A stretch of DNA of 64,000 bases, from assembly GCF_964355755.1 (NCBI RefSeq), contig NC_092672.1:33796437-33860436 (forward strand). Direction: 5' to 3'. This DNA is from Antedon mediterranea. Lineage: Eukaryota > Animalia > Echinodermata. Positions 6,771 through 64,000 of the stretch are shown piece after piece. The position numbers were made by a program, and so were the translations under genes. Under the pieces are notes generated by a model that ran no database searches, had not been told where the DNA came from, and was given only the letters and a program-made list of their open reading frames with translations. Every line of letters begins with the position of its first letter. Within the stretch, counting starts at the first letter, position 1.

Positions 6771-9700
6771 ATGGCTAATGCTTTTGCGACGACTGTTTTT
6801 TTAGCTGTTTTGATGTTAACCAGTTGTAACGCGTATGTGGAATGTGATGTCAAACCACCACAAACGTCACCTTATCACTTCTACGGACACGCTAACACAG
6901 CAATGTCAAACGAACTTGGCAAATACAATGCAACGCAATACGAGTGTATGCAGCTTTGTCGAAAGGACGCACGTTGCCTAGGCTTTACGTACGCTGCTGA
7001 TACGCAAGAGTGCGCGACGTTTGATCGGGATAGCGTCACTGGACCGGAACACATGGAGACGGTATCTGGTGTCTGGTTCTATGACATGCGTCGAAAAAAA
7101 AATAATCGAGTAAGTATATCGAATTTTTTTACATTTGTGTAACATATTTCAGCATTTGTTTGCCGGCCTGCCTGCTGGGAAGCTTTACCAAATATAGAAA
7201 TTGTCCATTTACGTTTTGCACAGCAGGCCAGAAATGTCTCGTTAGCATTCAATATCCTAAAAAGTCCTTATAGGTCTATAGAAAACCCATATTGTGGACA
7301 TCGGCCTCAACAGGCCCTGTTGTGGATAGAAAACAAATTAAGCTCTATAGAGAGATTTCATCAACTTCTATCAACAGAAATTTCTCTATACCATTCAATA
7401 CCCCAAAAATCCTTACGATGGGCAGTTCTTATATGGAAATCCCCTATTGTGGTGGACAACACGGCCTTAACAGGTTTCACCAATCCCATCAGCAAAAATG
7501 GCCCCTATAGCATTCAATATCATCGTTTGCCGTGAAAAGAACCAATTTTAATGAATAAATTGATTAACGTTGTTCAATTCATTTCTTGTATTATTATTAT
7601 TATTATTAAGCTGATCTGTTTAAATTGTATCTGACTGTGGGCCTACATCCGATGTATTATTGTATAATACATACATTTGTTTCTATGTGCAGTAGCTAGA
7701 CGTGTGCATTTGTAGTTAGGTTTTGCAGCCTGTAGGCCTACTGAAGACAATACAGTCATTTGTTTTTAAACATAAAAATGTTTCTGTCATGACATTCAAA
7801 AGAATAAAATATAAAATCAATTTGGCGTACCAAATGATCTGTAGTATTGATATACATATGGTTCATTATCATACTCTGTTAAACAATCAATACATACAAG
7901 TCATGTTGAATCTATATAAAAATGTACGTAAGGGAAAAATTCGGTAAATCGCGCCTTCTAGAATTTTTACTCGATGGTGTATAAAGTTGGTTTGTACTTC
8001 CGGTACTGAATTTAACCACCTGATGTAACCCTGTTTAATAAATTTCATTTGGAGTACCAAACTCCTATGATCTGTAGTATCAGCTGGAGCCGTACATATT
8101 GGGCATTATGTATTATTAGATTAAACAATCAATACAAGACTGTCAACATAATTTGTTTTCACTGCTTGTTTTGTAGTTACCGTAATGACGTCACAACATA
8201 AACATTTATTTATGTTTTAAAAAGTTAAAGCCGCTTTCCCACTAAAGACTAAATTTTATTTTTTAGTATTACAGTATTAAAAATAGCTTTCATAGAAGTA
8301 TGTTGTTCCCGTTGCCCCTGCTTATCTTCCAACTGGAATTTTTTTTATAGAGTTATGTAGGAAGATGCCAAACAAGTAACCGATGCTTTAACGGAGGCTC
8401 GTGTGTCAATGACTGCTCAGAACAAGGATACTCCTGCGCATGCCCAGTACAATTTCATGGGAAATTGTGTGAAAGTGGTAAATTTCTTGCACATAATCAA
8501 CAACCTACCTTGATTACATATACACGTAATCTCTTACGTCATAATATTACATTAATTAGTCGTTTAATTGGTTAAATTCAAGTATATTTTTGTATAAATG
8601 TTTTTGTAAAATGATCAACTTTTTTCAGGATTTATCCACGACTATGAGTTTAAATCAAACGTTGTTGGTATATCATCAGCAAGCAATACGGCGTTCACAT
8701 ACAAGAACAAACATTATCTTGTGATTGGAGGATAGTAAGTATTCAATCACGAGGAGAGTAGGGGAGGAGGGAGGAAAGAGGAGAAGGAGAGGGAGTAAAG
8801 AGGAGGAGATGGATGGAAGAGGAGGAGGAAGGGAGGCAGGAGGAGGAGAAGGAGGAGGAAAGCGAGGAAAGAGGAGGAGAGGAAGGAAAGAGGAGGAGAA
8901 GAGGGAAAATAGGGGGAGGAGGAGTGGAGGGAAGAGGAGGAGGAGGAGAGGGAGGAAAAAGGATGAGGAGAGGAAGGAAAGAGGATGAGGAGAGGAAGGA
9001 AAGAGGAGGAGGAGAGGGAGGGAAGGGAGGAGTGGAGTGGAGGGAAGAGAAGAAGAAAAGGGAGAAGAGGGAGGAGGAGGAGAGGGAGGAGAGGGAAGAG
9101 GAGGAGGAGGAGGAGAGGGAGGAAAGAGGAGGAGGAGAGGCAGGAAAGAGGAGGAGGAGAGGCAGGAAAGAGGAGGAGGAGAGGCAGGAAAGAGGAGGAG
9201 GAGAGGCAGGAAAGAGAAGGAGGAGGAGAGGCAGGAAAGAGAAGGAGGAGGAGAGGCAGGAAAGAGAAGGAGGAGGAGAGGCAGGAAAGAGAAGGAGGAG
9301 GAGAGGCAGGAAAGAGAAGGAGAGAGAGGGAAGAGGAGGAGAGAGGGGATGAGGAGTGAGGGAGGAGAAGATGGGGAAGAGGAGAGGGAGGGGAGGAAGA
9401 GAGAGTGGCGGAGGGGAGGAAAAGGAGGAGACGGCGACAGTGATGAGTAACTACTGACACATGCTTATTCCTTTATATTTTTATTTTTTAGTTTTAAATT
9501 ATATTTCTAAACCCTCATTAAATTTGGTTTCAGTATGGGCATTTCTGAAACACCAACAAAGGTGTACATATACAGCAATGCTGATGATATATATACCTAC
9601 CATCAAGATTTGGCTTCAACAACATCAGATATTGAGAACTTTATCATTAATGATCAACTTTATATTTTTGCCGCTGTTTATGAAACCTATGGTGTAGCCA

Positions 9701-12700
9701 ATGCATACATTAGAGATTCCTATCTTTACAAATTGAACATACATACAGGTACGTACTGTGTAGTGTTTTATTTCAATCTTTATTATTTATACCATAGAGA
9801 TATTATATATCTCTATGTTTATACGAACATATAAACGACACATACAAACGAATCGGAAAATGTTAAAATTGGGGTTGTTCTTGGTAGCTATCATCACGTA
9901 ATTTTGTTGCACGCATATTGGTCTTGGTCAATGTTTACATATATGACGCTTTTATATAACGTGTGCGGAAAATGAAATTGTATTTAAAATATCATTACAT
10001 TTCAGGTTTGTTCGAACAACACCAAACGATTGTAACACAGGGTGTGAGGTCCGCATCATATTTACAATTGGCTGAAAATCATTATTTACTTGTTGCTAAC
10101 TACTACGGGACGTCATATGAAGTTGACACCGAAGTGTATAGATGGAATTTTACCAGTAACCTATTCGTTGAGTATGTCCAGCTACCGAGTCATGGTGCTA
10201 TCACTGGTAAACTATTCTCAATGGACGGTGCATTGTACGCGGCAATAGCAAACTATTACGGGACCACTGATGGAACCGCAGTGAAATCTCAAGTTTGGAG
10301 AGTGACTAGAGGAGCACGTAAGTATGAACATGGATTAAAGAATAGAAGTGTATGCATCGATGGTGACATCAAACGATTTTCCAACGCGCTTGCCTATACT
10401 AAAGCACTGCTGTCAATCAAACAAACACGCTCATTGAACTCGGTGTCTCTAACCGCGGCCCTCTATAGAACGCTGCGAATCAACTGTTACATTTTTTAGA
10501 ACAAAACGTAACCATGTAGAAATCGTATGCGCAGTCTGATTGTTCTATTGGCATGCGTGCGTTGATGATTAATTGACAATAGCAATACATTGCTGAGCAA
10601 TTCTGTTTTAATTTCATCACAATCGGACTACGAAAAGTTAACTTTCTTACGACCGGTAATTTTAAGTAGTTGGTAATATTAATAAAATATGCAATTTTTA
10701 TATTTGAATTATCATATTGGCCTGCCACTTCCTGTCATTAAAATTTGCGTTAATCTATAGAATATTAAGTTATGCATTTCACCATGTTTGTCGTTACCGT
10801 GTCTTGTGGTGTCAAGTACAACAAACGTGTTTTTAATATATGGCTAAGCAGTGGTTTCTTCATAAACCTCCTTAATTATCGATATGATTATATTTAAAAT
10901 GTAGTACCAGGTGATTGGCTAGTGGTTATGTCATCCACATCATATCCAATCACCGGGCCTAATCGAATGAAAGCTGCGATCCCTGATCCGGGATTGGCTG
11001 GCTATGTATAGCTGCGATACGTCACCACTGACCGTACTACTCTCTAGCGCTCGTTTTGAAAAGTAGACGCATAAAACATAAAAGTACCTTGTCTATTACT
11101 GTAATTTCATTCCTACAAGAAGTAGACAACGGTGAGTATAGATATTATGATTACACGTTGTAGCTGCTACACGTAAGATTAGCCTACTAATAGGCCTACA
11201 TAGGAGGCCTATATCAATGTCGGCGAATCATAGGGTTTACTAGTAAGCCTAGAAGGCCTGGGCGGCCTAGTGTTCTTGCCGAGTTTGTAATTTTACATGT
11301 AGGCTGAGACAAAATCTAGTTGTTGTCTCAAACAAACGTGTTTTTAATATTTGGCTAAGCAGTGGTTTCTTCATAAATGAGACAACAACTAGTTGGCTAC
11401 TAAACAGGTAGAAAAATGCTATACTTCAAGGTCATAAAAACATTAGCGTAGATCAATAGCGGCAGATTTTGAACATTGGCAAAATTCATGTTTTTTTTTA
11501 ACCCAAAGGGTACTACAATTTACAAGCAATTTGTATTTAATCTTGTAATTACATTTAGTAATAATCTTGTAATATTTCTGGGAGATCGTTTAATTTGAAT
11601 TCGTCGCATAAAGTTTTTCTCGTCGCCATAGCAGCTAGCGCTAAAAATATAAAATATCTATCATGCCACCAAGATAAGAGCGCGCGAAAGCATAGCCAAC
11701 AAGGTTGAAGGTTGTTGCGCATGTGCAGAAAACAATATATTAGGCACGCGACCGTTTCGTTGTTAACGACGGTTAATTAAACTGTTAATGTTGTAACATT
11801 GTGGGCGGTCTGTCGGTTAGAGTCATAGAATCTTTGATCTCCAACTGATGTATATCCTTCTATTCCTTGGTATGAACTATTAAGGAAAATTAAAATTACT
11901 TTAACGGTGATGTAAAACTTATATTGAAGATACCTTGTTTATTAGGGGTTTATATTGGCTGTTTTCAAGATAGCGGCAGCCGAGCATTGTCAGATGCCGC
12001 TACCAGCTCTAGCAGCATGACAATTGAGTATTGTATCAACCATTGCTTCAACCATGGGAGTCCCTATGCTGGCGTACAATCATCATCACAATGTTTCTGC
12101 GGAACGACGTATGCAAAGTACTCACAGCGTTCTGAAAGTGAATGTTCGACAATATGTAATGGAAATTCGCAACAAATATGTGGGGGAAGCTGGAGGAACT
12201 CGGTATATACAACAGGTAAGTAAACAACAAATAAGAATATTATTCTTTAGTAGGATTTACAGGTACGTATATTTCGAGTAAAAGTCCAGACGTGCCTCCA
12301 TTCAATACACGCCATTGCGTGTATATTTCGAGTAAATGTACAGACGTGCCTCCAGTCAATACACGCCATCGACTGCATATTTCGAGTAAAAGTACAGACG
12401 TGCCTCCAGTCAATATACGTCATCGCGTGCATATTTTGATTAAATGTACAGACGTGCCTCCAGTCAATACACGCTATCGCGTGCATATTTTGAGTAAACA
12501 TACAGACGTGCTTCCAGTCAATACACGCTATCGCGTGCATATTTCGAGTAATTGTACTGACGTCGTGCCTCCAGTCAATACACGCTATCGGGTGCATATT
12601 TCAGGTAAATGATGTACAGGCGTGCTTCCAGTCAACACACGCTGTCGCGTGTATATTTCGAGTAAAAGTAAACAATGTTAATTTTTTTTAAACTAACGCA

Positions 12701-13440
12701 ACTTAGTTCAATATGCCAGCCCGTGTGTTTACGAGTAGAAGTATTGTAAAATTAAACACATATTCAATATCTCCATATGTATATATTGCAGGTATACCTT
12801 TATTATTATAATAGTCATACAGTTTGACTTTTCAGGTCGTGCTGAACTAGTACAGTCACTTGACGAATCGAACGCTGGCTCAACTGGAATCGACACATTT
12901 ACAAATAACGGAGATACTTACTTAGTAGTTGTGAATCATCATAACTGTATACAGAACACAATAGTGTACATATGGGACAAATCGACTGATGAATTTCAAA
13001 TTCATCAACGTATTCCCGTTGAACACTGTCCCTACAGATCTACCATTTTCAAAGTAAGTATAATTTGAACACTGTGCAATCACTTGGATTAGTACATTGA
13101 TAGGCCTATATCTAGGAATGTTCCCTTAAAGGTTACCTTCTTGTATTAATGTAATTTTCTTAATTTTGTTCAGGTTGGCGGAGAAGTGTTCATGATATTA
13201 ACCACACTCAGAACGGATTATAGTGGAAGTGTCAATGTTGAACATTATACTACGTCATCACCGATATTTAAACTTGAGGGCAGTATGTTCGTTAGATACG
13301 GAGCCATAACATCCCATGAATGTTATTTCATTTCTTTTTTTGAGCGAGATGGGGAGTACTTTTTAGGTCAGTCGAATCAACGAAATGCCGATGATGGAAG
13401 CAAAACTGATCCAAGTTTTAACATATACCAATGGGTGTAG
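6771..13440 (+). CDS. Paralogue A: secreted SP-PAN-EGF-(EAR/EPTP)4-WSC-(EAR/EPTP)3 protein, 617 aa
   Basis: Exons 6771-7109, 8351-8477, 8629-8734, 9534-9748, 10006-10317, 11946-12215, 12836-13053, 13174-13440; all GT-AG, 1854 nt open to TAG. Signal peptide MANAFATTVFLAVLMLTSCNA. PAN ECMQLCRKDARCLGFTY..ECATF. EGF CFNGGSC..YSCACPVQFHGKLCE. EAR-like FEQHQTIVTQG..YLLVANYY..EVYRWN. Confidence 0.88.
8750..9440. repeat. Polypurine (GGA/GAG) satellite in intron 3 of paralogue A
   Basis: ~690 bp almost entirely A/G on + strand, with an internal higher-order unit gagaggcaggaaagagaaggaggag. Confidence 0.95.
11946..12215 (+). CDS. WSC domain cassette exon of paralogue A (phase 1-1, 270 nt)
   Basis: YIGCFQD..RAL..SMTIEYCINHC..YAGVQ..QCFCG..SECSTICNGNSQQICGGSWRNSVY is the 8-Cys WSC pattern. 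Confidence 0.92.
12267..12670. repeat. 54-bp tandem minisatellite, ~7.5 copies, in the intron after the WSC exon of A
   Basis: atttcgagta recurs at 12271, 12325, 12379; unit atatttcgagtaaaagtacagacgtgcctccagtcaatacacgccatcgcgtgc. Confidence 0.92.
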
Positions 13441-15503
13441 TGCACTGTAAACTAGTATATTGTACCAAAAAATGGTTGTGATTTTGATAGCTTTTAGAAA
13501 ATGAAACTTTTTGAAATGATGTTTTTGTTAATATTATTATAAACAAATGGCCGGCACTTATTGTAAATTTGTTTTTAGCAACTTTAGTTTACAAAGAGAA
13601 GTTTACACTAGTTTAAACTGGGTTCAACTGGATTACACTGGCAATAGATAGTATTTTAGCCTGTAGTTGAGTTTGTCAAAGCTGTTGTTCCTGTACTGTA
13701 CCATGATGTACATTGTGTAGACCTCCAGAATCACCTGACTACAAAGACTCTGATTTGATTGGCTGAACATCAGCATAGGATGACCTCTGCAAACTAGTTT
13801 TCTCGTCTGTTCTCTGGTCTGGTCTACTCTGACAAACTTGTTCTTGCTAAACATAAAAGTTTGCTCACATTTTTAAACAAACTTGTTAGTAGATTAGGCT
13901 AATCCAGTTATGTTTGTCTTTTATTTTAATGACCTGACAAAAAACACAAACGTTTTATGCTCTACTAACAGTATTTGTTTTATAATTTGTATGTGGAATG
14001 CGATTCAAGGCGACTTTTCAGATGATAACCATTAGCCTACAGATCGTTATAGGTCGTATGAATAGGATCGCATAAATGATCAATAACTATTGTTAATATA
14101 AGAAATAAAAGTGAACAACTTCTATATTCAATTAAAAGCACGTCTTTGTTGATTTTTATTGCTCATAAAAAAACAAAATCGATGGTATGTACAATTGTGC
14201 TTTAGGTGATTTTATGTGATTTCGACTCGATGTGAACGAATGCTTATTGTTTCGAATCCATCTGAACACACGTCTCTTTGGTATGAAAGAAATAATACAT
14301 CAATAGAATCGATTATTGTTTTATATTAAGTTATAAACAATGTTATTGAAATTGCATATTTCAGCCACTTAGGAGGCAGACGAAGTAATAGTGAAAGATA
14401 AATCTATCATATAGATACTACCGTGAGTCGCAAACAGCAAATGCAAAATATAGCTATCTACAACGGATTGACAGTTTATCATCGAGGAAGCTTGAAATGA
14501 CAACAGAAACTTGTAACCCGGTCTTCTCAACTGCCAAGATCACAATCATGTGTACCTTTGCTTTGTTGTTACCTTGGTCCGACGCGTATATGGAATGTGA
14601 TATTAAACCTCCACAAACGTCACCTTATCACTTCTACGGACACGCTAACACAGCAATGTCAAACGAACTTGGCAAATACAATGCAACGCAATACGAGTGT
14701 ATGCAGCTTTGTCGAAAGGATGCACGTTGCCTAGCTTTTACGTACGCTGCTGATACGCAAGAGTGCGCGACGTTTGATCGAGATAGCGTCACTGGACCGG
14801 AACACATGGAGACGGTATCTGGTGTCTGGTTTTATGACATGCGACAAAAAGATTTTACTCGGGTGAGATTCAATGAATGATTATTTGTTTAACACTTGTC
14901 ACCAATTCAACCATGAAAGTCTAGCATGAGTGGTGGCAGGCAACGTTTCTTTTTTTTTTACCCGAGTGTAGTAGTGGTAATGATTTTAACCCACGAATCT
15001 GGAAAGCAGGCAAGTTACATGATTTGTGCCTAAAAATGAAAACTTGAAGTAATGAAAATGTCATAATTATTGTTTTCATTAATATTTCTCTCCTAAATTA
15101 AACCGTGAATTTATGAGTTACCAAAACTTGTTCCAAGTGTAGACGCACACAGGACTTAACGCAAGCAAAAATGTTTACAGCTGAACCAACATTATGTTAA
15201 GCTCTATCTACACTATCGACAAACGCATACCATTTTAAAATGAAATATCTGAAATAAAGTCGATTTTTTTTTAGTGACGGTATTACTGAAACACCAACAA
15301 AGGTATACAGGTACAACAACACTAACGAATTGTATGACCATTACCAAGATTTGTCTGGAACAAGTGATGTACGAGATATCGAGAATTTTATAATTAATGG
15401 ACAACTATATATGTTTGTCGCCAACTTTAAAACACATGGTATCGCCGATTCTAACAACAGAAATTCTTACGTTTACAAACTCAACCTACAAACAATTCAA
15501 GGT

Positions 15504-15834
15504 ATTTTTTTTTTATTAATTATAGTTTTATTTATTCTATTCAATCGAAACCAACAGCGATGATTACCGCCACTAACAGGTTTGATACAAACAAAGCCAG
15601 GACTGTTAAGCACCATGATTGGTCCAGGGTCCACCTTGACCAGAGGTCTGAGGCAGATACTAGATGCAGGGGCTGCCATAAGAGTCAGCAGTGCTGATTT
15701 GAAATGCCTAACGGGACCCCAGCGCCGTATACAGCACCCGCTATTCCCAGATGGTCTCCCATCCAAGCTCTAACCAGGCCCAACGTTGCATAACTTCGGT
15801 GATCTGACGAGAACCGGTGTTTCAACGTGGTAGT
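15504..15834 (-). mobile_element. 5S rRNA-derived SINE-like element (SINE3 type) in an intron of B
   Basis: Minus strand reads taccacgttgaaacaccggttctcgtcagatcaccgaagttatgcaacgttgggcctggttagagcttggatgggagaccatctgggaatagcgggtgctgta (5S-like, 15730-15834), then a ~190-nt unrelated body and an A-rich tail (aataaataaaactataattaataaaaaaaaa). Confidence 0.75.
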
Positions 15835-16545
15835 TATTGAATTTAGTTTGTTTTGATATTTAATACAATTACCATTTGCATATAATTTGCATATAATTTG
15901 TATATAATAAAATTGTGTTTGCTCTGAGACACAAATACAAAATACACAATGCAGATTAAAATTATCTCGATAAGGTCAAATTGTTACAACTAGTCTGGGT
16001 TCTAGAACGAAATTAGTAGCAAGATAAATATTTTGGTGCATATGGCGTTTCATACGTATAATACATGAGCTCGTATTCAGAAAAAACGCCGACTGGTGGA
16101 CTAACAAAAAAAAACAATAGCTACAGACTTGGGGCAATTCTACGTTACAACGTTCAGTACCCCAAATAATAGCTGGAGAATATATTGCAGGACCTGCAGG
16201 ACACATTTCCACAAGGACGAAGAACCGGTAAATCTTCATTCCCATTAGAAGTAATTCAAGCGTGGTTCCCACTAACGCAAGGCAACGCAATCTACGCAAC
16301 GTAAGAAAATGCCGTTCCAATGTGTTTGCCCCGCCTAGGTGGAATCAAACTGATTCAATTTCCTGCTGCGTGCGAGTTGCGTTTAAGCGCAGCGGGAACA
16401 AGGCATCAGAGATGCAACCGTCGTAAGCGTCAATTCGCTTGCGTAGAGATTACGTCGTTGCGTTACGTCCCTAGTAGAAACCAAACTTGGCCTTGTTCCC
16501 ACTAAAGAGGAAATGCAAGAACGTAGACGCAAGCAAGTTGACTAA

Positions 16546-16724
16546 AGCGTGGTTCCCACTAGCGACGCAACGCAAGGACGTAACGCAACGCAAGTGAATT
16601 GACCAATCACAAGCGATGGCTTATTCGCTTGTGATTGCTAACTGTCTATAACTTCGCTTGTCATTGGTTAAAACGCTTGCGTTGCCTTTACGTCCTTGCG
16701 TTACGTTCTAGTGGGAACCAAGCT
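16546..16724. mobile_element. MITE family 1 (PIF/Harbinger-like), full copy
   Basis: TIRs agc(g/t)tggttcccactag, flanks TAA/TTA. Related sequence at 16258-16545, 24505-24620, 43825-43960, 62760-62900. Confidence 0.75.
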
Positions 16725-17540
16725 TTAGGACAAGTGACAGTTGATTCATCGATAGTGATTGGTCAGCTCGCTTGTGTTGAGCTTACGCGCATCTCATCAT
16801 GTTTTATTTCAGGTTTATTCGAACAGCATCAAACTATTTTAACACAGGCTGCCGTCTATGCGTCATACGTACAATGGGCAACACACCATTATCTACTTGT
16901 GGTTAACCAATACAATGGGACGTCCTATGACGTCAACTCAAAAGTGTATCAATGGGATTTTGCCAGTAACCTCTTCGTAGAGTATGCGCAGCTACCGAGT
17001 CATTACGCTAACGGTGGTGAACTATTCTCAATGGATGGTGTATTATACGCGGCAATCGCAAACTATGACGAAACCACGAATGGCTACGCGGTCAAAGCTG
17101 AGGTTTGGCAAATAACAGAACAAAGTAAGTACAAGAATAATTTTAATTTCACATTTATCAAATTTAATGCGAACACCCTTTATATATCAAGGAAGCCCTT
17201 TTTGTTCGCTTTCCACTATTAAGCGCCAACCAATCGTAAATTAGGATTCCTGGATAAAGTAGAAATATTTAATCAGTATCAATAAATGCAAATAATACAT
17301 TACAGTCCGTTCCTAATTATGAACACTAAAGCTATATTGGAATACACATCGTGTCGTCATCAGAGTACAATCATCATTCGTGTGCAAAAATAAAATATGA
17401 CGTCACGGTTTCCAGTTTATTATTGATTGGAGTATACCGTTGTGAATTTCTTATTTGATGTTGATTATCGATTATTGATTTTCAACTAAAGAAGATGGAA
17501 TTGCGATAATAATTCAAAGGGTATCATGTGTTTTGTTTAG

Positions 17541-17813
17541 GAGTTTATGAAGGTTGTTTTGTAGACGCCAGTACCAGAGCATTGTCAGACGCGTCTACCT
17601 CTAGTGGAAGCATGGCAATTGAGTACTGTGTAAAGTATTGCTCTGACCAAGGAACTCCTTATGCTGGATTACAATTTGGATCAAACTGCTTTTGTGGAAC
17701 GACGTACTCGAAGTACGGAGAACGACGTCCTGAAAGTGAATGTTATTCGGTCTGTGCAGGAAATCCGCTAGAAAGGTGTGGTGGTGGCTGGAGAAATTCA
17801 GTATACAAAACAG
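17541..17813 (+). CDS. WSC domain cassette exon of paralogue B (phase 1-1, 273 nt)
   Basis: YEGCFVD..RAL..MAIEYCVKYC..YAGLQFGSNCFCG..ECYSVCAGNPLERCGGGWRNSVY. Confidence 0.85.
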
Positions 17814-20800
17814 GTATTCGAGAAGACAAGAAAAATCACCTATTGCATAATGATGATTGAGTTTATGTAATAATAAACACTTGATCCAAGTTTAAAACCA
17901 GTCATTGTTTACAGTTACTAAAAGTGTTATCACATCAAATATGAGAGGAAGGAAAAGTTTAATTGAGAGAAAGGTTAACTTCCTCTCCCAGTGTGTCCAC
18001 ATTGCATCATTTAGCCTAGTCATCACACAGTTTTTCGAAGACTTTCTTCTTAAATATCTCATTAATTTCCTTCCCACATTCTTATGCTCTGACTCGACTC
18101 CACTATCAAACTTTATGTGACAAAATTAATGTTACGAGCCCATATATGGACATAATGATGTGATGATTAATGATTTGGGCATCACTAACATATTTGGTTT
18201 ACATCACACTTGTTTTGTCAAATTAATTTGACAGTGTATTCAGAGCTTTAGGTATAATTTGTCTTTGTTTTTGAAAAGTTGTAATTCATGTTTTTTGACA
18301 CTCGTTTTATAAAGACTACATCATTTACATATCGAATACATATGACAAACTACAGCAGTTTTATTCGATCAAATAAATGCAATTTGACTTTTCAGGCGGT
18401 GGTCTTGAACTAGTACAGTCGCTGGACGAATCGAACGCTGGCTCAACAGGAATCGACATTTTCACAAATGACGGACATACTTACTTAGTAGTTGTGAATC
18501 ATTATAACTGTATACAGAACACAATAGTGTACATATGGGACAAATCGACTGATGAATTTAAAATTCATCAACGTATTCCTGTGAAGCATTGTCCCACTAG
18601 ATCTACCATTTTCAAGGTAAGTGTGATTGTGCCCGATCCCCATCGTGCCTATTATACATTTTCAATTGTTCGTGCTACAGCTGAAAAAAAAATGACCCAG
18701 GTCAAGTGGGCTGAAGTACTCAACAGCTTGAAATTGCTCATTGCAAATTTTGGAAATTTGCAGATTTGCCAAAATGTGCTTTGAAGAAATGAGATTTACG
18801 GGCATTAAAATAAGTTAAAGTGTAAAGATTCGTCTACACTATCAAACTAGTTTGACAGAAAAAGAGTGATGTGCCTAAATGTGGTAATGATATGACATCA
18901 TGTCTATATAGGGACACATCACAATTGTTTTCGCCAAAGTTTGATAGTATAGACAGAACCTAACGCAATTAAACTGCCTCTTTCGGGTTGCTTTTTGTTG
19001 ATCTATCTCTTAATTTGCCTTTTTTGTTTTATTAAATTATATCTTTCAACTATCTGATAACGTTGTTTATTTTCAGGTCGGAGGAGAAATATTTATGGTA
19101 TTACTCACTATAAGAACGGAATGGAGCAACGTCGATAACGTCGACGATATTGAGTTCTATACTACGTCATCGACGATATTTAAACTTGAGGGCAGTATGT
19201 TCGTAACATACGGATCCATAACGTCACATGAATGTTACTTCATTTCTTTTTTTGAGCGAGATGGGGAGTACTTTTTAGGTCAGTCGAATCAACGAAATGG
19301 CAATGATGGAAGCAAAACTGATCCAAGTTTTAACATTTACCAATGGGTGTAGAAGACTACCATGTCAAGTCTGTGATTCACTGAGTTAAGTCAATGCACT
19401 CATAATATTACTGTACTGATACTAACATAATTTCAAAACTTGCACTAAATTCTGTAATCGCACGATTGTTTTTCGTTTCTTAAAAGTACCTTGTTGTGAT
19501 GGCGCTAGTTACAATCCATTATGCGTGATTGACTAATAGAATTAAGTAATGCTTTAACGTCATACATATGGAGAGATACTTGTACTCGTGGTTCACTGTG
19601 AGTACGAGAGTCTGGTAGTACGTCATACTATTAGATATGGATGTTGTAAATACTGTGCGAATGAATTAAGCTATCGTTTTGTACATCAGACTACAAATAT
19701 TATTGACCGAAATGAATGAATCAAAGTTTGATGGCGCTAGATATACTTCGTAATGCACAAACGGTTAAGTAATTATTGTAATTCTTTTTAATGTTATTCA
19801 ATGGAATTGTTTGTGTTATATATTGAACACTGATAAATAGTTTGCATGGGGTAATTGGTCTTGCAAACCAAACCTTATCCAAACCGACCTAAATCAAAGT
19901 TTAGGGATTCCTGCAGACAGGACCACAATGTAAAACAGATACACTGTTATCTGATTGTTTCATCCTGTTTAAATATATTATTTATGACAGTATTACACGA
20001 GTAATCAAAATACGGTGTTGTTTTGTAATTTCTGGTACCGGTTGATCGGTAAAGGTTATGACTTGTAATATGACATCTCCCTGGTTTATGTAAATAAAGT
20101 ACGAATGAATTTAACTTGTTCTTACACATTTACACAAAAGAAAATGTATTTGGTATTACCAGTATAACTTTGTCACGAAACATGGCGACTTGAAAGCGAG
20201 TGACTGGCCAGGCGATTTAAGATATCTTTCGAGACGAGTAGGGGGGGGGGGGGTGACCCCGGATTACTAGTATATGCCTACACACAGCCACTGCCACTCA
20301 CATCCATTCATCTATAGGGAGCCACACGCGCTTCAGGCGACAGTGGGTGTTCTGTTATTGCAACTCGGCCTACTGAAAAATACAAGAAAAATAAAATTTC
20401 AATATTACGTGAAAATATTTACATAATACATTTATTGATTGATCACTTTAATTCAGAATAAATATTTCACATACAACAAACAATACAAAACGGAAAATCA
20501 CACTAAAATAGGATCTTCTCCCATTTAGTAAAGATATTTAAAGATCGTAACAGATAGTTCGTAGTACACCTAACAAGATCATGTTCACTATTAAAAACTC
20601 TTATTCTAAAATCATAGACGCAATTGCGTACATGCTCGTAAAAAGAGGATATTCTCCTTATAAAATTGTAGTTATATAGTTATAGTTACATTATGTAACG
20701 GTCGTCGCATTATTATTTTATTTAAAGCTAAAAGTATATTAACTTTAGTGTTTTAATTTATTTTACCCTAGACCAACATCGTTGTTTATTCCGTTACGAC

Positions 20801-22001: not shown

Positions 22002-22086
<85 letters not shown>

Positions 22087-22518
22087 CATACTGTAAATTA
22101 TAGAAACAGTGCTCATATTCGGAACATGATCTCATAATCGCGTCGAGCATAGCTCATTGGCGAAAGTTCCGTATTTTTTAGTTGTATGAAAAAATGTCTC
22201 TGGCGGGATTCGAACTGGCGTTTGTTGTATGAGAGAATGTATCTGGTGGGTGAAAATCTGTGATAATACCATACATGGCTCTGTGGTCTAGTGGTATGAT
22301 ACTCGCCCTGTAAGCGAGAGGTTGCAGGTTCGAATCCCGCCAGAGACATTTTTTCATACAACTAAAAAATACGGAACTTTCGCCAATGAGCTATGCTCGA
22401 CGCGATTATGAGATCGTGTTCCGAATATGAGCACTGTTTCTATAATTTACAGTATGATTTATATATAATTTACACAGTGCTACGCAACATCATTGATATA
22501 TATATATATATATATATA

Positions 22519-22571
<53 letters not shown>

Positions 22572-30605: not shown

Positions 30606-30654
30606 TTGATGTAAAGTTTAAAACGTATGGCGCTCGTTGATTTTCAAAACTCGA

Positions 30655-41244: not shown

Positions 41245-53007
<11,763 letters not shown>

Positions 53008-55750: not shown

Positions 55751-57647
55751 TTTTGCTACAGATTTAATACATCATCACTATGTGGCATGAATACGGGCCT
55801 TCTGTGTTCTTTCACATGTCAAAGTGTTTGTCACTTAGGCCGCAGTTATAAATGCATCACGATAACGTTAAATAGTTTAGAAGTGCACATTGCGAAAGAC
55901 AGTCAACTACCAACGGTATTATGTTGTTATCATGTTTACCGCATTAAAAAAAAATATGTATGGTCATGCAGAATATTATTGAATATTAATGTTTTTAAAA
56001 GGCATATTTAATAATGGTTAGGTTTAATAATTTATAAGTAAAGTATATAGGTGGTAGATAATTATATTACCAAGAAGCACGTTTGTAATGGTTTTTGTTC
56101 ATTGAATAAAGTATACTGAAATAACCGTAAATTAAATAGTTTGGAAGCGCATTGCGAAAGACAGTGAACTACCAACGCTAGTGGGGGAACCATCCATGAG
56201 CTCTAAGTCACGACAGTGAACTACCAACGCTAGTGGGGGAACCATCGATGAGCTCTAAGTCACGAATTGTAGGAAACGTTATACACCATTTTGAAACGAA
56301 ACACACAAGAACTTTTAACGCTCATTTTAAACAGACATGATGCGCGCTGGCGCCAAAATTACATTTATCGTTCTGTTGTTAACTAGTTGCGATGCGGATG
56401 TGGAATGTGATATTAAACCTCCACAAACGTCACCTTCTCACTTCTACGGACACGCTAACACAACAATGTCAAACGAACTGGGCAAATACAAGGCAACGCA
56501 ATACGAGTGTATGCAGCTTTGTCGAAAGGACGCACGCTGCCTAGCTTTTACGCACGCTGCTAATACGCAAGAGTGCGCGACGTTTGATCGAGATAGCGTC
56601 ACTGGACCGCAATACATGGAGATGGTATCTGGTGTCTGGTTCTATGACATGCGACGAAAAAGAAAAGATTTTACTCGGGTAAGTTTTTTTTTCTACTTTT
56701 CAACTCCGGTTCCCAGGCCGAAAAAATCACTACAATTAATGGATGCCAACCCCATGTTTTTGAAGTTTGTTGTGAGCTTTCTAATTTTGTAAATCTTACG
56801 AATAAGATTTCCTTTGGATACTGATAAAGCATGTGAGGCCAAATATTCACGGTGACAATGTTAAAATTTGTTTATTGGTTATAGAATTACCTTGGGACAT
56901 GCCAAGCAAAGAACAAATGCATCAACGGTGGCTCGTGTGTCAATGACTGTTCAGAACTGGAATACACCTGTGTATGTCCAACAGATTTTTATGGAAAATT
57001 TTGTGAAAACAGTAAGTACAGATATAGTCTTCTCTTACCTAAAACCTGTTTTCCACTAGGCGAATTTATTCACGCGTATCCAATATTTTCGCAGAGAAAA
57101 AAATCGCGCTTACCTTTTCTAGCAGAAGCTAGAATCGCCTAGCGGAAAACTGGCTTAAATGGTCTTTCACACTATTTTCACGACGCTCCACGCGGCTATG
57201 CACCAATCGATATGCGCGTAGCCGCGTGAAAACGTCACATTGACGTTCAATAAAACGTTATTTTTAAAAGTTTTTTTTAAATAATTAATTCTGTACTTTA
57301 GATATCAAACAGAAACTGGTGGATTTAGACTCTAGCTGTCACCTTGTTTAATTTAAAGTTGAGATTGAATCTTTCAGAATTTATCCACGACTATGAGTTT
57401 AAATCAAACATTGTTGGTATATCATCAGCAAGCAATACGGCGTTCACATACAAGAAAAAACACTATCTTGTGATTGGCGGATAGTAAGTATTTTGAACTT
57501 TGACAACAGCGATTAAAATAACTAGACATGTAACTCGTCACTTGAGGAGGAGTTTGGTTATCCGCCCGCAACAAAACGTATCTTGCGCATTCAAGTACTT
57601 TTCCAAAAAGTAGCCTATTCAAAATAAATCCGTTTATTAATTGATTT

Positions 57648-57719
57648 CGCCTGATGGGATTCGAACCCGGTACCTCTGATACCAAAGGCGGTTGCACTAC
57701 ACATCGAGCCATATGAGCA
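57648..57719 (-). other. Degenerate tRNA-like sequence (probable SINE/MITE head)
   Basis: Minus strand gctcatatggctcgatgtgtagtgcaaccgcctttggtatcagaggtaccgggttcgaatcccatcaggcg; B box GGTTCGAATCC intact, stems poorly paired. Confidence 0.5.
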
Positions 57720-57802
57720 CCTACTGAAGGAAATTCCGAAGAAAGATTACTCGGTATGTCGTGAACCCCTCGATGCAAGTTGATTATTACATACCGAACT
57801 AA

Positions 57803-58730
57803 CGCCCGTATTCTTAAACCGGACTTTAGTCGTAGTTCGAGCTAAAACTAAAAAAATGACGTCATTTTAATTCATAAACCGAACTTCAACTAAATCACCG
57901 ACTAAATCAGGCCAACCTCGACTAAATCGAGACGGATTTTGATCAATTTTTTTAGTCCTGGAGGGGGCAGACTAAATGGTCGACTAAATGGTTTTTAAAC
58001 GATGTTTATAAAAAAACGTAACAGTCATTGAATTGTTATATTGGCCAGATATTGAAGAATGAAATATCTATATTTATATTAGCTTAATTAAATATACATT
58101 GGTATAAATTATAATAATGAAAATCATCTTTATTTACAACTGTATACAAATTACATTATTTTCTTCGCGCAAGTCCGACTTGAGCTACGTCACGCCATAG
58201 CGACAATGGGAGATGCGGCAATTCACCACGCGATGGAATGTTTAGGGGGCCTAGCGCTTTCTTGTCACGCTATGAAGTGCGTGGTTCGTGGCGATCATAC
58301 TTTGTTGGGGGCCTAGAAAATATAAAAGTTACCGTACCGCCATGGTTCCTAAATATATTTTTAAGATTTTATTTTTTGTTAATCAAATATACTTCACTGT
58401 TAAATTAATACTAATATTGTTCTAATAATTAACAATTAAAATTATTTTTCATGTATATAGTCCTGATGCGTAAAAAGTGTTGTAAGAAATGGAAAGTGAT
58501 ATCAATGCGCAAAATTTCGTCTGCTCCTCAAATACTCTCTTGTCATTGGCCAATGTATAGCCTTTGTTACCCAGACGTGTGCAACTCGACTAAAAGCTCG
58601 ACTTCATTAAGTCGAACTGCAAACTTCGACTACTTCGTTTTTTAATCGAATTTGAAGTAATAGCTCGAACTACGACTTTTCCAAGTCGAACTTCGAACTA
58701 CGACTAAAGTCCGGTTTAAGAATACGGGCG
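57803..58730. mobile_element. PIF/Harbinger-like non-autonomous element, 928 bp
   Basis: 38-bp TIR cgcccgtattcttaaaccggactttagtcgtagttcga and a perfect TAA target duplication. Confidence 0.88.
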
Positions 58731-59686
58731 TAAATCATAATTTTTACTTTCATAAAATCTTCACAAATTTTAAACAGTGACATATTATGAAAGTGCATAC
58801 TTTCAAGTTTCATATATTACAATATGAAGAAAAAAGATAAACGTTATGTTTATTGTTTTGCTCTTTGAAAATGTTATTGTTGGTTTGATTGTAAAAATTT
58901 CACAAATTAAATTTAATATGCAAATAATGTAGCCATCAAAGACGTTTTAACATTCAACACTATAATAAATCACATCTATGATTCATACTTTGCAAGAAAA
59001 TAAAATAAAAAATAGGGGTAACCTTGCATTCTGATGAACTGTATCGTTTTTAAAAGTAGACATATTTTGCAACATTTTCACAATTTTTTAACGTTTTACG
59101 TGCGCAGCCAGTCATGTTTAAAGTGCTCGTAAAACGTCATTTCGAGTTGACTAGTGAATAAAATAACCTAAAATTGTTAACGGAAGTTTGAAAAACACAA
59201 TTTATGTAAAAGAAATGCTCATACGCGTTCCCTGCGCCGTGCGCGCGTAAAAATGTGCGCACCAGTGGGAAGTTTCTAAACGCTTGAAATGACCTGAAAC
59301 GTGCTCTAATTTAATCAGAAATTGAAATTTCAAACGCCATTTTCGCGCACACTTTCTAATGTTACATGCCATTTTTAATCCATAGAAAGTTAGCGTATGA
59401 TGTAAATTAAACTTTGGCTAAGTTTCAATTATAAATGTTATTTGGTTTTTGACCTATGTTAAATACGCGAAATTCATAAAATCGCGCGAAAATCACGTTG
59501 CGCAATTGCAAACGTCGTGAAAACCTTCGCTGCACAACTTCACGTGAATGGCGATATGTTGAGAAAGTTACGAAATGTTATGTTTGCAAGCTTTTGAGAT
59601 ACGCGTGACACAAAAATTACAGAAAGAAGAATGGGGTAAAAAAAAAATGATTTCGTACAATCACAAGAGGTTATCCAGCAACTTCG

Positions 59687-62292
59687 TTGCGGATATTTAT
59701 AGAAATACCAAACAAAAATAAAAATACTATCATTGGAATAATATATAGAGCACCTGACCTCTCTGTCGATGAATTCGCCAAGGAAATTGAGAATCTCCTA
59801 TTCAAAATAAATTCGGAAAACAAAATATGTCACATCATGGGCGATTTTAATATTAACCTTATTCATTATGATAAAAATGATAAAATAAATGATTTTATAG
59901 ACATTATGTTATCAAATTCGTTCTACCCCTTAATATCAAAACCCACTAGAATCTCAACATCCTCTGCGACACTCATTGATAATATTTTTACCAACCAGAT
60001 CGACACAGAGTTCACTACAGGGGTTCTAATATCTGATATTACTGACCACTTACCAATATTTCAAATAAATCGTATTGAACAAAATATTAAAGTATCAGAT
60101 GATTCTAGCAATGACAATTGTTACCAGTTCAGGTATACCATCAATGATGAATCAATACAGAATATCAAACATGAAATTAGTTTAATGGACTGGACACCTA
60201 TTACACACGGAAAAAATCCAAACACTGCATATGAACTCTTCCATCAAATTCTTAAAAGTATCTATGATAAACATTTTTTACGTAAAATAAAAATAAAAAA
60301 ACATAAAGAAAATAAATTTAAACAACCATGGATGACAACTGATCTACTAAAATCAAGTAAAATAAAACTTAAACTTTACAACAAATATTTAAAAAATCGA
60401 ACAACAGAAAACAAACGAATTCATGATACGTATCGGAAAATATTTAATACTGCTTGTCGTTCAACCAAAAGAAAATACTATTCTGATAAATTCTCCCAAT
60501 CAAAAGGCAACCACAAAAAGACGTGGGATGTGATAAACTCGGTGATTTCAAATAGGAAGGCCAAACAAAATATTCCATCCTCCCTGATACATGATGGGGA
60601 AGACATTTCAGGGGAAGATAACATCACTTCTTCATTTAACAAATATTTCGTAAACATTGGAAATAACCTAACTAAACAAATAAACTGTTCGTTTAATCCA
60701 CTAGAATATATGGGTAATTGCCAGCCAAATTCATTTTTCACCACACCTGTAACGGAACAAGACATATTTGACATTATAAATAACATAGACAGCAATAAAA
60801 GTCCAGGGTACGATGATATATCCCCTCGCGTTGTTAAAGCCATTACAGATTATATAACTGTTCCCCTTACACATATCACAAACTGTTCTTTCGTTTCTGG
60901 TATAGTGCCAAACAAACTTAAAATTGCTAGGGTAATTCCAATATATAAAAAGGGTAACATCAACGAAATTAAAAATTATCGTCCTATATCAATCCTTCCA
61001 GTCCTATCCAAAATCCTTGAAAGAGCAATTTATAATAAACTATACACCTACTTAACGAAATATGCACTCTTAAACCCCCACCAATACGGATTTCGAGCTA
61101 AGCACTCAACATCCCACGCCATACTTGAACTAACAAAACACATAATCACATCTTTCGAGAACAAGAAATACTTAATTAGCGTATTTATGGACCTATCAAA
61201 GGCATTTGATGTAATGAATCATGATATTTTGCTTAAAAAGATACATCACTATGGTATACGAGGAACTGGTTACAAGTGGATTCAAAGCTATTTACAAGAA
61301 CGAAAACAATTTGTACAAATAAATCAAACCAAATCATCACTCCAACATATTAAATGTGGAGTACCGCAAGGGTCCATCCTTGGACCCTTGTTATTTCTTA
61401 TCTATGTTAACGATATTATTAGAGTAAGTGATAAAATAAACGTGATTTCCTTTGCGGATGATACCACTGTTTTCATGAGTGATAATAATATAAACAATCT
61501 TATAGACACATTAAATATTGAACTTTCAAAAATTAATAAATGGTTTATGACAAACAAACTTATTTTAAATATCGATAAGACTAACTACATTATTTTTAGA
61601 CCTCAGCAAAAAAAGATCCCTGAAATTACTTCCCAAATCCAAATTAACAAATCAATATTACAAAGAGAACACACAGTTATGTTTCTCGGAATACATATAA
61701 ATGAACATTTATGTTGGAAACCCCATATAAACTGCATCTCAAATAAAATCGCTAAATCCATTGGTATCATCTACAAGGTAAAACACGTCTTTCCTAAACA
61801 TATTCTTTTAAATCTGTACAATGCGTTTAGCTTACCACACCTCTATTACTGCAATATAATATGGGGAAATGAATATCCAACAAACTTAGAAAAAATACAT
61901 AAATTACAAAAACGTATAGCTAGAATGATTACAAACTCACCGATGAGAACAGCCTCCAAACCACTATTACAAAGTTTAAAAATGTTAAATATATACGATA
62001 TAAATAAAATTCAAATTGCATGCTTTATGTTCAAATATCATCTCCAGGAACTTCCCATCCCTATAAACAATTGATTGATTTAAACCCTAAAACTGATCGC
62101 TTAAAGACATTAAGAAACGCAAATAAGAAATATATTCCACACAGTAGACTAGAAATTAATAAAAGATCAATTTTTATTGAAGGACCAACATACTGGAATA
62201 AACTCCAGTCTACCCTAGAACAAAATCACATGACCTCACTCCCTAAGCTAAAGTACAATATTAAAAAGATGATATTTGAAACATATTGCTAG
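59687..62292 (+). CDS. LINE ORF2 remnant: partial AP endonuclease plus reverse transcriptase; frameshift near 62060
   Basis: APE motifs IYRAP, MGDFNI, TLIDNIF, ITDHLP. RT motifs NYRPISILP, QYGFR, DLSKAFD, GVPQGSILGPLLF, FADDT, FLG. The C-terminus continues in ORF 62020-62292 (GPTYWNKL). Confidence 0.9.
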
Positions 62293-62532
62293 CTACTATT
62301 GCTACTGCAAAATTGGGGTTGTAAACATTTAGCTTAATATCACTTTGTTGTGTTTGTGTTTTTTTTTTTTGTTTTTTTTTTCTGTCTCAAAATGTCATTT
62401 TTTGTTAATGTAATGCGTCCGTATAATATGTTTTATGTTTATGCTTAGGACTACAAAGACAAGCCACTTTGGCTTCTGTGTATCTTAACCCATAAACTTT
62501 GTAAAATATTGAATATTGAATAAATGTTGTTG
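59693..62532 (+). mobile_element. 5'-truncated non-LTR retrotransposon (CR1/L2 group) in intron 3 of F
   Basis: Long ORF2 remnant, then a 3' UTR with hairpin caagccactttggctt and an aataaa-containing end. Confidence 0.9.
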
Positions 62533-63328
62533 TATACTGGATAACCAATAAGCAAAACAAAGACGAAAGCCACGCTTTATTAAACTATCACTTGACTTGT
62601 ATATAATGTGTAACATATATTGTAGATGAGAAATGGTTCTCGAAACTCAAATTCAAGACTCTAAGGAATCTAATTAAATGCCTTGTTATACTACGTATGC
62701 TTTTCCGTAATTTTTGTGTTATTATAATATGATCATAATTATTTATTAAGAGAAATCATTAGCCTTTGTTCCCATTTGCGTCCAACGCAAAGACGTATAG
62801 GCAACGTAATTGATTTGACTAATCACAAGCGATGGATTGTTCGAACTTTCGTTTGCCATTGGTCAACTCGCTTGCGTTGTGTATACGTTCTTGCGTTAAA
62901 GGGAAAACGTCTGGAAACATTTGGAGTACTGAGACGAGGTAATTTTTTTTTGTAAATTTTAGTGACGGTTCTTGTGGAACTCCAATATACAGATACAACA
63001 ATACTAATAAACTGTATGAACATTACCAAGATTTGACTGGAACAAGTGATGTACAAAAAGTTGAGAATTTTAAAATAAATGGACAACTCTATATTTTGTT
63101 TGTTGCAAACAGCAGAATAGTTTACGTCTACAGATTTAACTCGCAAACAGGTAAGTGTACGCTACGTGTTGCCTATTGACAAAGAACGTATAAAAAGTGT
63201 CTTTGCTATTAGTTTGCAGTTCGATACAGATGAGGTTGGTAACCCAGTTCAACTTCAAATTAACTAAATGTATTTTGTAATTTCAACCAGTGAATTATAT
63301 AACAAAAATATGTAATATGTAAATACTG

Positions 63329-63860
63329 TACCTCCGCCAAGGAGGTTATATTTTCACCCCTGTGTGTGTGTGTGGGTGTCTGTGTCTGCGTGTCTGAGAA
63401 CAGCCTGGAGGCCACAGTTTGTATCCGATTCTCACCAAATTTGGCCACAATAATGTATCTCTTCAACGAGTTTGACTTTGAGGGGAAAAGTTCACAACTA
63501 ACAAAAAAAACTTTTTTACTGCCTAGAGACAACAGTTTTTATCCAATTCTCACCAAACTCAGCCACAATGATCAATGACTCATCATATAATTGTGGTTAA
63601 ATTTTGAAGGTTCAGGGTCAAAGATGAAGGTCCACAAAAAAAAGAAAAAATAAACCTCAGCGGGAATTGAACCGGCGATCTCAACTGTGAGAGGCTGAAT
63701 ACATAACCATTACACCAAACTCTCATCCACAACTTTGTAGTGTGTAGTTAGCCGAATTTACATTTAGAAATAATAGAAAAAAAATGTTAATATATATATT
63801 TTTTCCGGGGACATTTTACGTAGGAGAATGTTACAGAAGGCTCCCGGAGTACCCTCTAGT
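63329..63860. mobile_element. Helentron/HINE-like repeat containing a tRNA-like segment
   Basis: Starts tacctccgccaaggaggtta followed by (TG)n; minus-strand tRNA-like gtttggtgtaatggtta..ggttcaattcccgctgaggt at ~63654-63720. Confidence 0.5.
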
Positions 63861-64000
63861 TTTATTTGTTTTAGGTTTTTTTTAACAACATCAAGCGATG
63901 GCAACACATGGCGCATATGATGCATCGTATTTAGAATTGACTACAAATCATTATTTACTTGTGAATAACGGAACATCATACGAAGTGAACTCAACGGTGT

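What the first reader, a model, noticed from the sequence alone, without database searches (positions are those of the whole stretch)
6771..64000. Tandem family of secreted PAN-EGF-EAR propeller proteins with an interchangeable ligand-binding slot (WSC vs 2 or 3 MAM)
Seen: six paralogues share one exon scaffold (SP-PAN, EGF, seven EAR/EPTP-like repeats). At one fixed phase-1 position between repeats 4 and 5 they carry WSC (A, B, D), MAMx2 (C) or MAMx3 (E). Known: seven EAR repeats form the beta-propeller of LGI1 and are present in TSPEAR and ADGRV1; WSC is a carbohydrate-binding module; MAM and PAN are extracellular interaction modules. Inference: a constant propeller scaffold displays swappable recognition domains from one loop, suggesting a diversifying recognition, adhesion or matrix protein system. 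I know of no named family with this architecture but cannot search to confirm novelty.
Basis: partly seen in the sequence, partly recalled or inferred. Interest (0 to 1): 0.88.

Follow-up and report, generated by a model that had tools for sequence, protein, structure and literature searches.

The report
Echinoderm propeller proteins with plug-in domain
A feather-star gene cluster encodes an unnamed, echinoderm-wide family of likely secreted proteins whose predicted seven-bladed propeller carries a plug-in domain in one loop, normally WSC but replaced once by two or three MAM domains; three of the six copies are broken, so this is likely exon shuffling in a duplicating family rather than a rapidly switching recognition system.

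Summary
The architecture is real; the 'six-gene swappable system' is overstated. The window matches the crinoid Antedon mediterranea: gene A is identical to RefSeq XP_071946236.1.

- Genes: A (617 aa, WSC), C (803 aa, MAMx2) and E (959 aa, MAMx3) have open frames. B lacks two exons and stops after PAN, D has frameshifts, F has an in-frame stop.
- Fold: the AlphaFold model of A (pLDDT 78) closes one LGI1-type propeller around WSC (Z 37.3, rmsd 2.0 A, 317 of 330 residues). WSC sits between strands C and D of blade 4.
- Splicing: one RNA-like run joins EAR4 to WSC, and the last MAM to EAR5.
- Range: PAN-EGF-EAR-WSC-EAR occurs in all five echinoderm classes, so WSC is ancestral. MAM came in once in the Antedon lineage and was then duplicated. 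An Antedon paralogue has an empty slot; brittle-star homologues carry a discoidin domain in the equivalent loop of blade 2.

Function is inferred only: a secreted LGI1/TSPEAR-like bridging protein. No description was found in ten literature searches.

The parts
6771..13440 (+). Gene A, intact, 8 exons (6771-7109 SP-PAN; 8351-8477 EGF; 8629-8734; 9534-9748; 10006-10317; 11946-12215 WSC; 12836-13053; 13174-13440), 617 aa
   Evidence: GT-AG model identical to RefSeq XP_071946236.1; Pfam; fold
11946..12215 (+). WSC slot exon of A, phase 1-1, predicted to lie between strands C and D of blade 4
   Evidence: Pfam E 1.2e-21; one contig of run X1 joins 10317 to 11946 with 0 differences (table 8); strands
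14497..19352 (+). Gene B, WSC type, broken: exons 14497-14862, 15275-15501, 16813-17124, 17541-17813 (WSC), 18396-18616, 19077-19352; EGF and first EAR exon absent; stop straight after PAN
   Evidence: RefSeq models only the 3' 287 aa (P0003); an X2 contig spans 14821-15567 without gaps (X2 may be the assembly's own sample)
21347..30605 (+). Gene C, MAMx2 type, open frame of 803 aa in 11 exons (825 aa with the mini-exon); EGF has a Cys-to-Ser change; EAR5 exon (29497-29681) lacks strand D4
   Evidence: no database protein matching C appeared
26766..28636 (+). Slot of C: MAM1 (26766-26888 + 26977-27315) and MAM2 (28094-28204 + 28316-28636, with internal deletions), all phase 1-1
25912..25977 (+). 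66-nt phase 1-1 mini-exon, a truncated MAM start; counterpart in E at 45820-45885
   Evidence: used in RefSeq P0002; not significantly more conserved than the intron
33256..38696 (+). Gene D, WSC type (WSC exon 36318-36590), pseudogene; its 5' exons resemble C and its 3' exons resemble B
41245..53007 (+). Gene E, MAMx3 type, open frame of 959 aa in 13 exons (981 aa with the mini-exon); the EAR3-4 exon donor is the weak GTAGTG; EAR5 exon (52314-52507) lacks strand D4
   Evidence: RefSeq XP_071944910.1 (P0002) equals residues 266-981 of the mini-exon model
46280..52186 (+). Slot of E: MAM1 (46280-46402 + 46520-46837), MAM2 (50626-50748 + 50859-51194), MAM3 (51463-51585 + 51854-52186); MAM1 and MAM2 are 96% identical in DNA
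   Evidence: an X1 contig joins a last MAM exon to the E-type EAR5 acceptor
56337..64000 (+). Gene F, C/E-like 5' half, cut by the window end; in-frame TAA at 63883-63885; LINE-like element in intron 3
5580..5821 (+). Orphan, frameshifted PAN exon (seventh, relic copy) upstream of A

Best explanation
These genes encode a likely secreted extracellular bridging protein built on a predicted LGI1/TSPEAR-type seven-bladed EAR propeller, whose blade-4 C-D loop holds a phase-1 exon cassette (WSC in all five echinoderm classes, likely replaced once by MAM repeats in the Antedon lineage), so that the propeller face would bind a protein partner while the insert and the PAN-EGF arm would tether it to glycans or glycoproteins.

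Shown: exon structure, domain content, three open frames and three broken copies, family range, spliced slot junctions in one run. Predicted: one closed propeller in A with WSC hanging from the C4-D4 hairpin. Inferred: secretion (hydrophobic N-terminus, no later membrane segment); that C-D loops and the N-terminal arm lie on the face opposite the B-C/D-A loops (general propeller geometry, own knowledge); that this free face binds a partner, as the channel rim of LGI1 binds ADAM22; the history (tandem duplication, one MAM gain possibly after WSC loss, duplication of the B-C block, MAM copy-number change, decay of B, D, F). Untested: any ligand, and whether the MAM forms close the propeller without strand D4.
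For: Gene A equals the RefSeq protein. Its AF2 model from a 41-row alignment has pLDDT 78 and pTM 0.72, mostly 77-95 per ten residues over 161-617, with strands 358-374 and 450-464 running from blade 4 into and out of WSC. Best PDB matches are the LGI1 EPTP domain: Foldseek TM by target 0.82-0.83; VIA Z 37.3, rmsd 2.0, 317 of 330 residues over model 157-617, next unrelated fold Z 31.6. An independent Atlas model aligns 343 residues (158-617) to TSPEAR. The same PAN+EGF+EPTP+WSC set occurs in Anneissia, Acanthaster, Holothuria, Diadema and Amphiura. The five Antedon rows form one clade (97/97), with C/E (100/100) inside it next to the empty-slot P0005 (94/94). Amphiura has a ~158-residue F5/8C insert at A residues 259-264, the C2-D2 loop. 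Splicing is seen. dN/dS is below 1, including EAR and MAM of C vs E (0.47; 0.42-0.51). No membrane segment follows the N-terminus (max hydropathy 1.0-1.3). LGI1 binds ADAM22 at the channel rim (PMC5906670, passages). A fungal WSC protein binds long beta-1,3-glucan (PMC7816849, passages).
Against: No binding, localisation or tissue data exist for any member. The closest solved WSC is that of KREMEN1 (E 4e-18), which from my own knowledge binds proteins, so WSC need not bind sugar. The LGI1 Ca2+ site (Asp334/Glu336/Asp381) is not evidently kept: A has a D-x-E-x-F motif at the start of one A strand only, and C/E lack even that aspartate. C/E lack strand D4 and could not be folded. PAN and EGF were modelled poorly (pLDDT mostly 30-68). 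RNA evidence is one run that is only guessed to be RNA. The WSC-to-EAR5 and EAR4-to-MAM joins were not displayed. The MAM-type transcript matches E at 18 of 28 listed variant sites and is private at 10, so it may come from an allele or another paralogue. The test rejecting a crinoid WSC-only clade is marginal (p-AU 0.045).
Confidence: 0.55

Rival explanations
1. One reading: a diversifying recognition system (immune or allorecognition) in which a passive, constant propeller displays swappable ligand-binding domains.
For: Four slot states in one species: WSC, MAMx2, MAMx3, empty. A second slot is used in Amphiura. Tandem duplication with pseudogenes and a chimera is typical of recognition families (own knowledge). 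Two Amphiura genes with F5/8C+WSC (one also PAN) are on that paper's 'immune' list (PMC11310086 supplement table S2 rows); their match to P0019/P0159 is my inference from domains and chromosome size, and how the list was made I did not read.
Against: WSC is fixed across five classes. There is only one MAM gain. dN/dS is below 1 in all 13 comparisons. The scaffold changes as much as the slot. The Amphiura genes peak at only 3-4 TPM, in pluteus larvae.
Confidence: 0.2
2. Only the WSC gene A is functional; the MAM genes C and E are young shuffled copies on the way to decay, like B, D and F.
For: 3 of 6 neighbours are already broken. C/E lost strand D4. C lost an EGF cysteine and has a deleted second MAM. 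E has a weak donor, and RefSeq models only its 3' 716 aa. No MAM+EPTP protein of another species appeared (rows I scanned) or 35.
Against: Frames of 803 and 959 codons and all 10 and 12 introns are intact despite dS 0.1-0.4 between C and E. dN/dS is 0.28 (PAN+EGF) and 0.47 (EAR), with bootstrap intervals below 1. A MAM-type transcript is spliced at the new EAR5 acceptor.
Confidence: 0.15
3. A structural component of skeleton, adhesive or mucus matrix that cross-links by multivalent binding, with no receptor partner.
For: It is a secreted multi-module protein. MAM and WSC proteins occur in echinoderm skeletal proteomes (PMC5460417, passages). Vertebrate TSPEAR affects tooth and hair morphogenesis (PMC5065119, passages).
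Against: The skeletal WSC and MAM proteins listed in PMC5460417 have other annotations (SRCR/WSC/Sushi; meprin-like MAM). Expression of the candidate Amphiura homologues is low.
Confidence: 0.1

Closest known systems
LGI1-4 (LRR + EPTP propeller; PDB 5y2z, 9kzc)
   Same: Seven-bladed EPTP propeller closed by the N-terminal strand joining blade 7 (PMC5906670 passage; model Z 37.3, rmsd 2.0); signal peptide, an N-terminal module, propeller ending at the C-terminus.
   Different: PAN-EGF instead of LRR; the propeller is interrupted by a whole domain; 13-17% identity; the Ca2+ site is not evidently conserved.
TSPEAR (laminin-G + EAR repeats)
   Same: Top structural neighbour of the Atlas model, 343 residues aligned; N-terminal module followed by EAR propeller.
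   Different: No laminin-G/TSPN domain found by Pfam; internal WSC or MAM insert; echinoderm multigene family.
ADGRV1/GPR98 (EPTP repeats inside a giant adhesion GPCR)
   Same: EPTP repeats (PMC3691968 passage).
   Different: No membrane segment; no receptor domains in Pfam.
Integrin alpha subunits with or without the inserted I domain (recalled, no call)
   Same: Works alike in design: a seven-bladed propeller with an optional inserted domain, present in some paralogues and absent in others.
   Different: Different repeat (FG-GAP), membrane-anchored heterodimer, and as I recall the insert sits between blades on the ligand face; here it is predicted inside blade 4, between strands C and D.
KREMEN1 WSC domain and fungal WSC lectins
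   Same: The insert is a canonical eight-cysteine WSC domain (Pfam E 5e-20; KREMEN1 E 4e-18).
   Different: There WSC is a bead on a string; here both its ends feed one propeller blade.

Membership tests
EAR/EPTP propeller proteins (superfamily) | EPTP repeats detected by PF03736 | tested here: met
   P0001 96 bits against a cut-off of 21; exon hits
EAR/EPTP propeller proteins (superfamily) | Seven four-stranded blades closing one propeller, N-terminal strand completing blade 7 (gene A) | tested here: met
   Predicted models only:
EAR/EPTP propeller proteins (superfamily) | Closed propeller in the MAM forms C and E | tested here: inconclusive
   Strand D4 is absent; the Atlas model of the truncated RefSeq E has pTM 0.32 and matches MAM proteins; no fold of the full-length protein was obtained
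LGI1-4 | N-terminal leucine-rich repeat domain | tested here: not met
   Pfam finds PAN and EGF over residues 53-151 and no LRR
LGI1-4 | Central Ca2+ site of acidic residues from adjacent blades | tested here: inconclusive
   Motif scan only; no residue-level superposition
LGI1-4 | Binding to ADAM11/22/23 | not testable with these tools
   No partner known
TSPEAR | N-terminal thrombospondin-type laminin G domain | tested here: not met
   the region is occupied by PAN and EGF
ADGRV1/GPR98 | Seven-pass membrane domain | tested here: not met
   Hydropathy scan; the stop follows the last EAR strand
MALRD1-like (RefSeq name of E) | MAM domains interleaved with LDL-receptor class A repeats | tested here: not met
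   Pfam on P0002 gives MAM x3 and EPTP only
WSC lectins | Carbohydrate binding by the WSC domain | not testable with these tools
   Domain present; binding needs an assay

The most novel reading that the evidence does not exclude
The C-D loops of this EAR propeller are true exon-level sockets that echinoderms use again and again (WSC, MAMx2, MAMx3, empty, discoidin in blade 2) to re-aim one secreted adaptor, an integrin-I-domain-like design invented independently on the LGI1/TSPEAR fold; the MAM forms even work with a rebuilt or three-stranded blade 4 and give feather stars a set of functionally distinct recognition proteins.
Probability: 0.22. Interest if true: 0.75.

Novelty: new variant of a known kind. 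Interest (0 to 1): 0.5.

Why it matters
The EAR/EPTP families named in the papers I read (LGI, TSPEAR, GPR98) are vertebrate disease genes. This is an apparently undescribed, echinoderm-wide branch in which the propeller is split by a whole domain and is still predicted to close. It is a natural experiment in where the LGI1 fold tolerates insertions (C-D loops of blades 2 and 4). It is also a clean case of symmetric phase-1 exon shuffling with the with-, without- and replaced-insert states all present in one genome. Sea urchin and sea star orthologues make function testable. It is not, on present evidence, a new kind of variable recognition system.

Tried and rejected
- No whole genome is held, so other Antedon paralogues are known only from database proteins (P0004, P0005).
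- The single-sequence fold failed (pLDDT 34) and was replaced by the alignment fold.
- A complex prediction of the propeller pieces of E without the MAM insert never ran because the queue was full; there is no verdict.
- The idea that the MAM-derived mini-exon replaces strand D4 is unsupported: 3 of 66 differences against an intron rate of 0.096, p 0.11; its strand-profile score (-0.5 in E, -1.9 or lower in C) does not stand out.
- Positive selection: not seen in whole-domain pairwise dN/dS; no site model was run.
- Protein searches were shallow: 1 hit of 144 candidates, 6 of 31, 20 of 7997 (which missed the sea star, urchin and sea cucumber members). The HMMER search listed 150 of 7895 hits, mostly WSC repeats. 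Not finding MAM forms elsewhere, or members outside echinoderms, is therefore weak.
- No listed run is on record as RNA; lack of cover of an exon was not used as evidence.
- Literature: EPTP+WSC+echinoderm gave 0 papers; two of EAR repeat/sea urchin/WSC domain gave 8, none on this family by title and abstract start; EPTP+echinoderm gave 2, unrelated by listing; searches gave nothing on the family. The library lacks most subscription papers.
- No EPTP/TSPEAR term was found in the main text of PMC7351957, PMC5460417, PMC4336488 or in the held supplements of the first two. These are word searches, not sequence searches. One supplement of PMC11310086 was unreadable and another was cut.
- Earlier scan findings: none by sequence, words or nearby place; two from this genome were unrelated.
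Full report
Source and gene models. The window is AT-rich animal DNA with repeats of one gene unit. An exon of the first gene found one protein among 144 candidates, XP_071946236.1 of the crinoid Antedon mediterranea. My eight-exon GT-AG model of gene A (6771-13440) translates to exactly that 617-aa protein.

Which copies are intact. C (21347-30605) gives an open 803-aa frame and E (41245-53007) an open 959-aa frame, all introns GT-AG and all slot exons phase 1-1. RefSeq's partial model of E equals residues 266-981 of my model when a 66-nt mini-exon is included. B lacks the EGF and first EAR exons, which blastn finds only in A, C, D, E, F; its first exon runs into a stop. D has three frameshifts, a deleted acceptor and a truncated exon. 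F has TAA at 63883-63885 and is cut by the window end. A frameshifted seventh PAN exon lies at 5580-5821. So 3 of 6 copies are intact.

Splicing. Five runs hold the region, none on record as RNA. In X1 (guessed to be RNA), one 1159-nt contig joins 10317 to 11946 without a difference, i.e. EAR4 to WSC; 83 further letters on its 3' side were not displayed. In a second laying, a contig of depth 12 joins the donor of the last MAM exon to the EAR5 exon through the ten letters of the E-type acceptor. Of 28 listed variant sites in the three exonic contigs, 18 match E and 10 are private, so the source is an E allele or another MAM-type copy. The EAR4-to-MAM and WSC-to-EAR5 joins were not seen in these tables. 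X1 also holds low-depth intronic contigs.

Structure. A single-sequence fold failed. With a 41-row alignment the model of A reached pLDDT 78 and pTM 0.72. It has 28 propeller strands; the first (161-168) is read as completing blade 7, as in LGI1 (PMC5906670, passages). WSC lies between strands C4 and D4. The top seven Foldseek hits are LGI1 chains; the isolated EPTP domains score TM by target 0.82-0.83, which one half-propeller could not reach. VIA-align gives Z 37.3, rmsd 2.0 A, 317 of 330 residues over 157-617. The Atlas's own model aligns 343 residues to TSPEAR. For C and E it is open: their EAR5 exon starts at a new acceptor and lacks strand D4, the Atlas model of truncated E is uninformative, and the complex job did not run.

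Family range and history. A HMMER search of 1.84 billion representatives listed the best 150 of 7895 hits. I scanned 20 proteins with Pfam, chosen for broad or EAR-region matches plus a few WSC-repeat hits; six carry PAN+EGF+EPTP+WSC: A itself and proteins from Anneissia, Acanthaster, Holothuria, Diadema and Amphiura. All are 'uncharacterized' or named after WSC. WSC is in the same place in all, so it is the ancestral filler. Antedon P0005, on another chromosome-scale contig, lacks exactly the 91 slot residues. The two Amphiura proteins carry an extra F5/8C (discoidin) domain at A residues 259-264, the C-D loop of blade 2. On the propeller-only tree of 10 rows (D, F, P0004 and Amphiura left out) the five Antedon rows are one clade (97/97), C+E are sisters (100/100) and group with P0005 (94/94, not starred); forcing the crinoid WSC genes together is marginally rejected (p-AU 0.045) (similar 11-row tree). 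DNA comparison shows the block from B's 3' half through C repeated as D's 3' half through E. B and D are 94-97% identical in 3' exons, C and E 92-94%, D's EGF exon is 96% like C, and E's MAM1 and MAM2 are 96% identical. The simplest history is one MAM gain, perhaps into an already emptied slot, then block duplication and a MAM copy-number change.

Selection. Pairwise dN/dS is 0.20-0.52 in 12 of 13 comparisons, with bootstrap intervals below 1 in 11 of those 12; B vs D is 0.84 with a wide interval. C vs E gives 0.28 (PAN+EGF), 0.47 (EAR) and 0.42-0.51 (MAM). This argues for function of the MAM genes and gives no sign of diversifying selection at domain level. The propeller's long B-C loops differ most between A and C/E (25-26 of 81 identical, against 149-150 of 217 in strands), so the scaffold is not constant.

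Mechanism. The proteins have a hydrophobic N-terminus and no later membrane segment, hence are likely secreted. By general propeller geometry (own knowledge) C-D loops and the N-terminal arm lie on the face opposite the B-C and D-A loops. In LGI1 the rim of the channel binds ADAM22. I therefore infer a two-ended adaptor: the free face for a protein partner, the WSC or MAM insert and PAN-EGF for tethering to glycans or glycoproteins. Glycan binding is shown for a fungal WSC protein (PMC7816849, passages), but the nearest solved WSC is KREMEN1. The LGI1 calcium site is not evidently kept. The only expression hint is indirect: two Amphiura genes with matching domain sets peak at 3-4 TPM in pluteus larvae (PMC11310086, supplement table rows); their identity with P0019/P0159 is inferred, not checked by sequence.

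Novelty. It is an EAR/EPTP-propeller protein but not an LGI, TSPEAR, ADGRV1 or MALRD1 member. Ten literature searches found no description. Papers seen: passages of PMC5460417, PMC3691968, PMC5065119, PMC7816849, PMC5906670; passages, section 10 and a supplement word search of PMC7351957; a supplement word search of PMC5460417; a word search of PMC4336488; supplement rows of PMC11310086; all others as listings only. Optional domains inserted into propellers are known in principle (integrin I domain, recalled), and phase-1 exon shuffling with birth and death of copies is ordinary. Verdict: a real, undescribed variant of a known kind; interest 0.5.

Noticed in passing
window 59651-62292 (+): LINE-like element in intron 3 of gene F: 807-aa open stretch with a reverse transcriptase domain (Pfam RVT_1 E 3.5e-36), continuing in another frame.
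   Followed up: partly
window 49438-50312: 875-bp element with 193-nt inverted arms (94% complementary) in the MAM1-MAM2 intron of E, MITE-like; a second inverted pair 46964-47117 / 50340-50493 brackets most of that intron.
   Followed up: no
window 258-3400 (+): Exons of an unrelated gene upstream with WD40-like hits below Pfam cut-offs.
   Followed up: partly
window 25912-25977 and 45820-45885: Truncated MAM-start mini-exon with canonical splice sites, 95% identical between C and E, placed just after strand C4; used by RefSeq in E.
   Followed up: yes
window 30640-30800 and 53010-53143: Decayed partial duplicate of the last EAR exon just behind the stop codon of C and of E.
   Followed up: partly
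window 14497-19352: B's exons 4-8 are open and in phase with A's exon 3 (phase 2), so A exons 1-3 could in principle splice onto B's 3' half; not tested.
   Followed up: no
window first exons of A-F (e.g. 6829-7109): The PAN exons are 91-95% identical among all six copies while EAR exons of the same pairs are 70-90%, which suggests gene conversion or strong constraint on PAN.
   Followed up: partly
P0004 (XP_071944420.1), same 39-Mb contig length as the window's genes, not in the window: A further WSC-type paralogue, 355-aa partial model.
   Followed up: partly
window 3753-4425, 8764-9430, 12269-12670, 44589-45211, 55447-55751: Tandem repeats (37, 22, 54, 4 and 107 nt units) in introns and spacers.
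   Followed up: no
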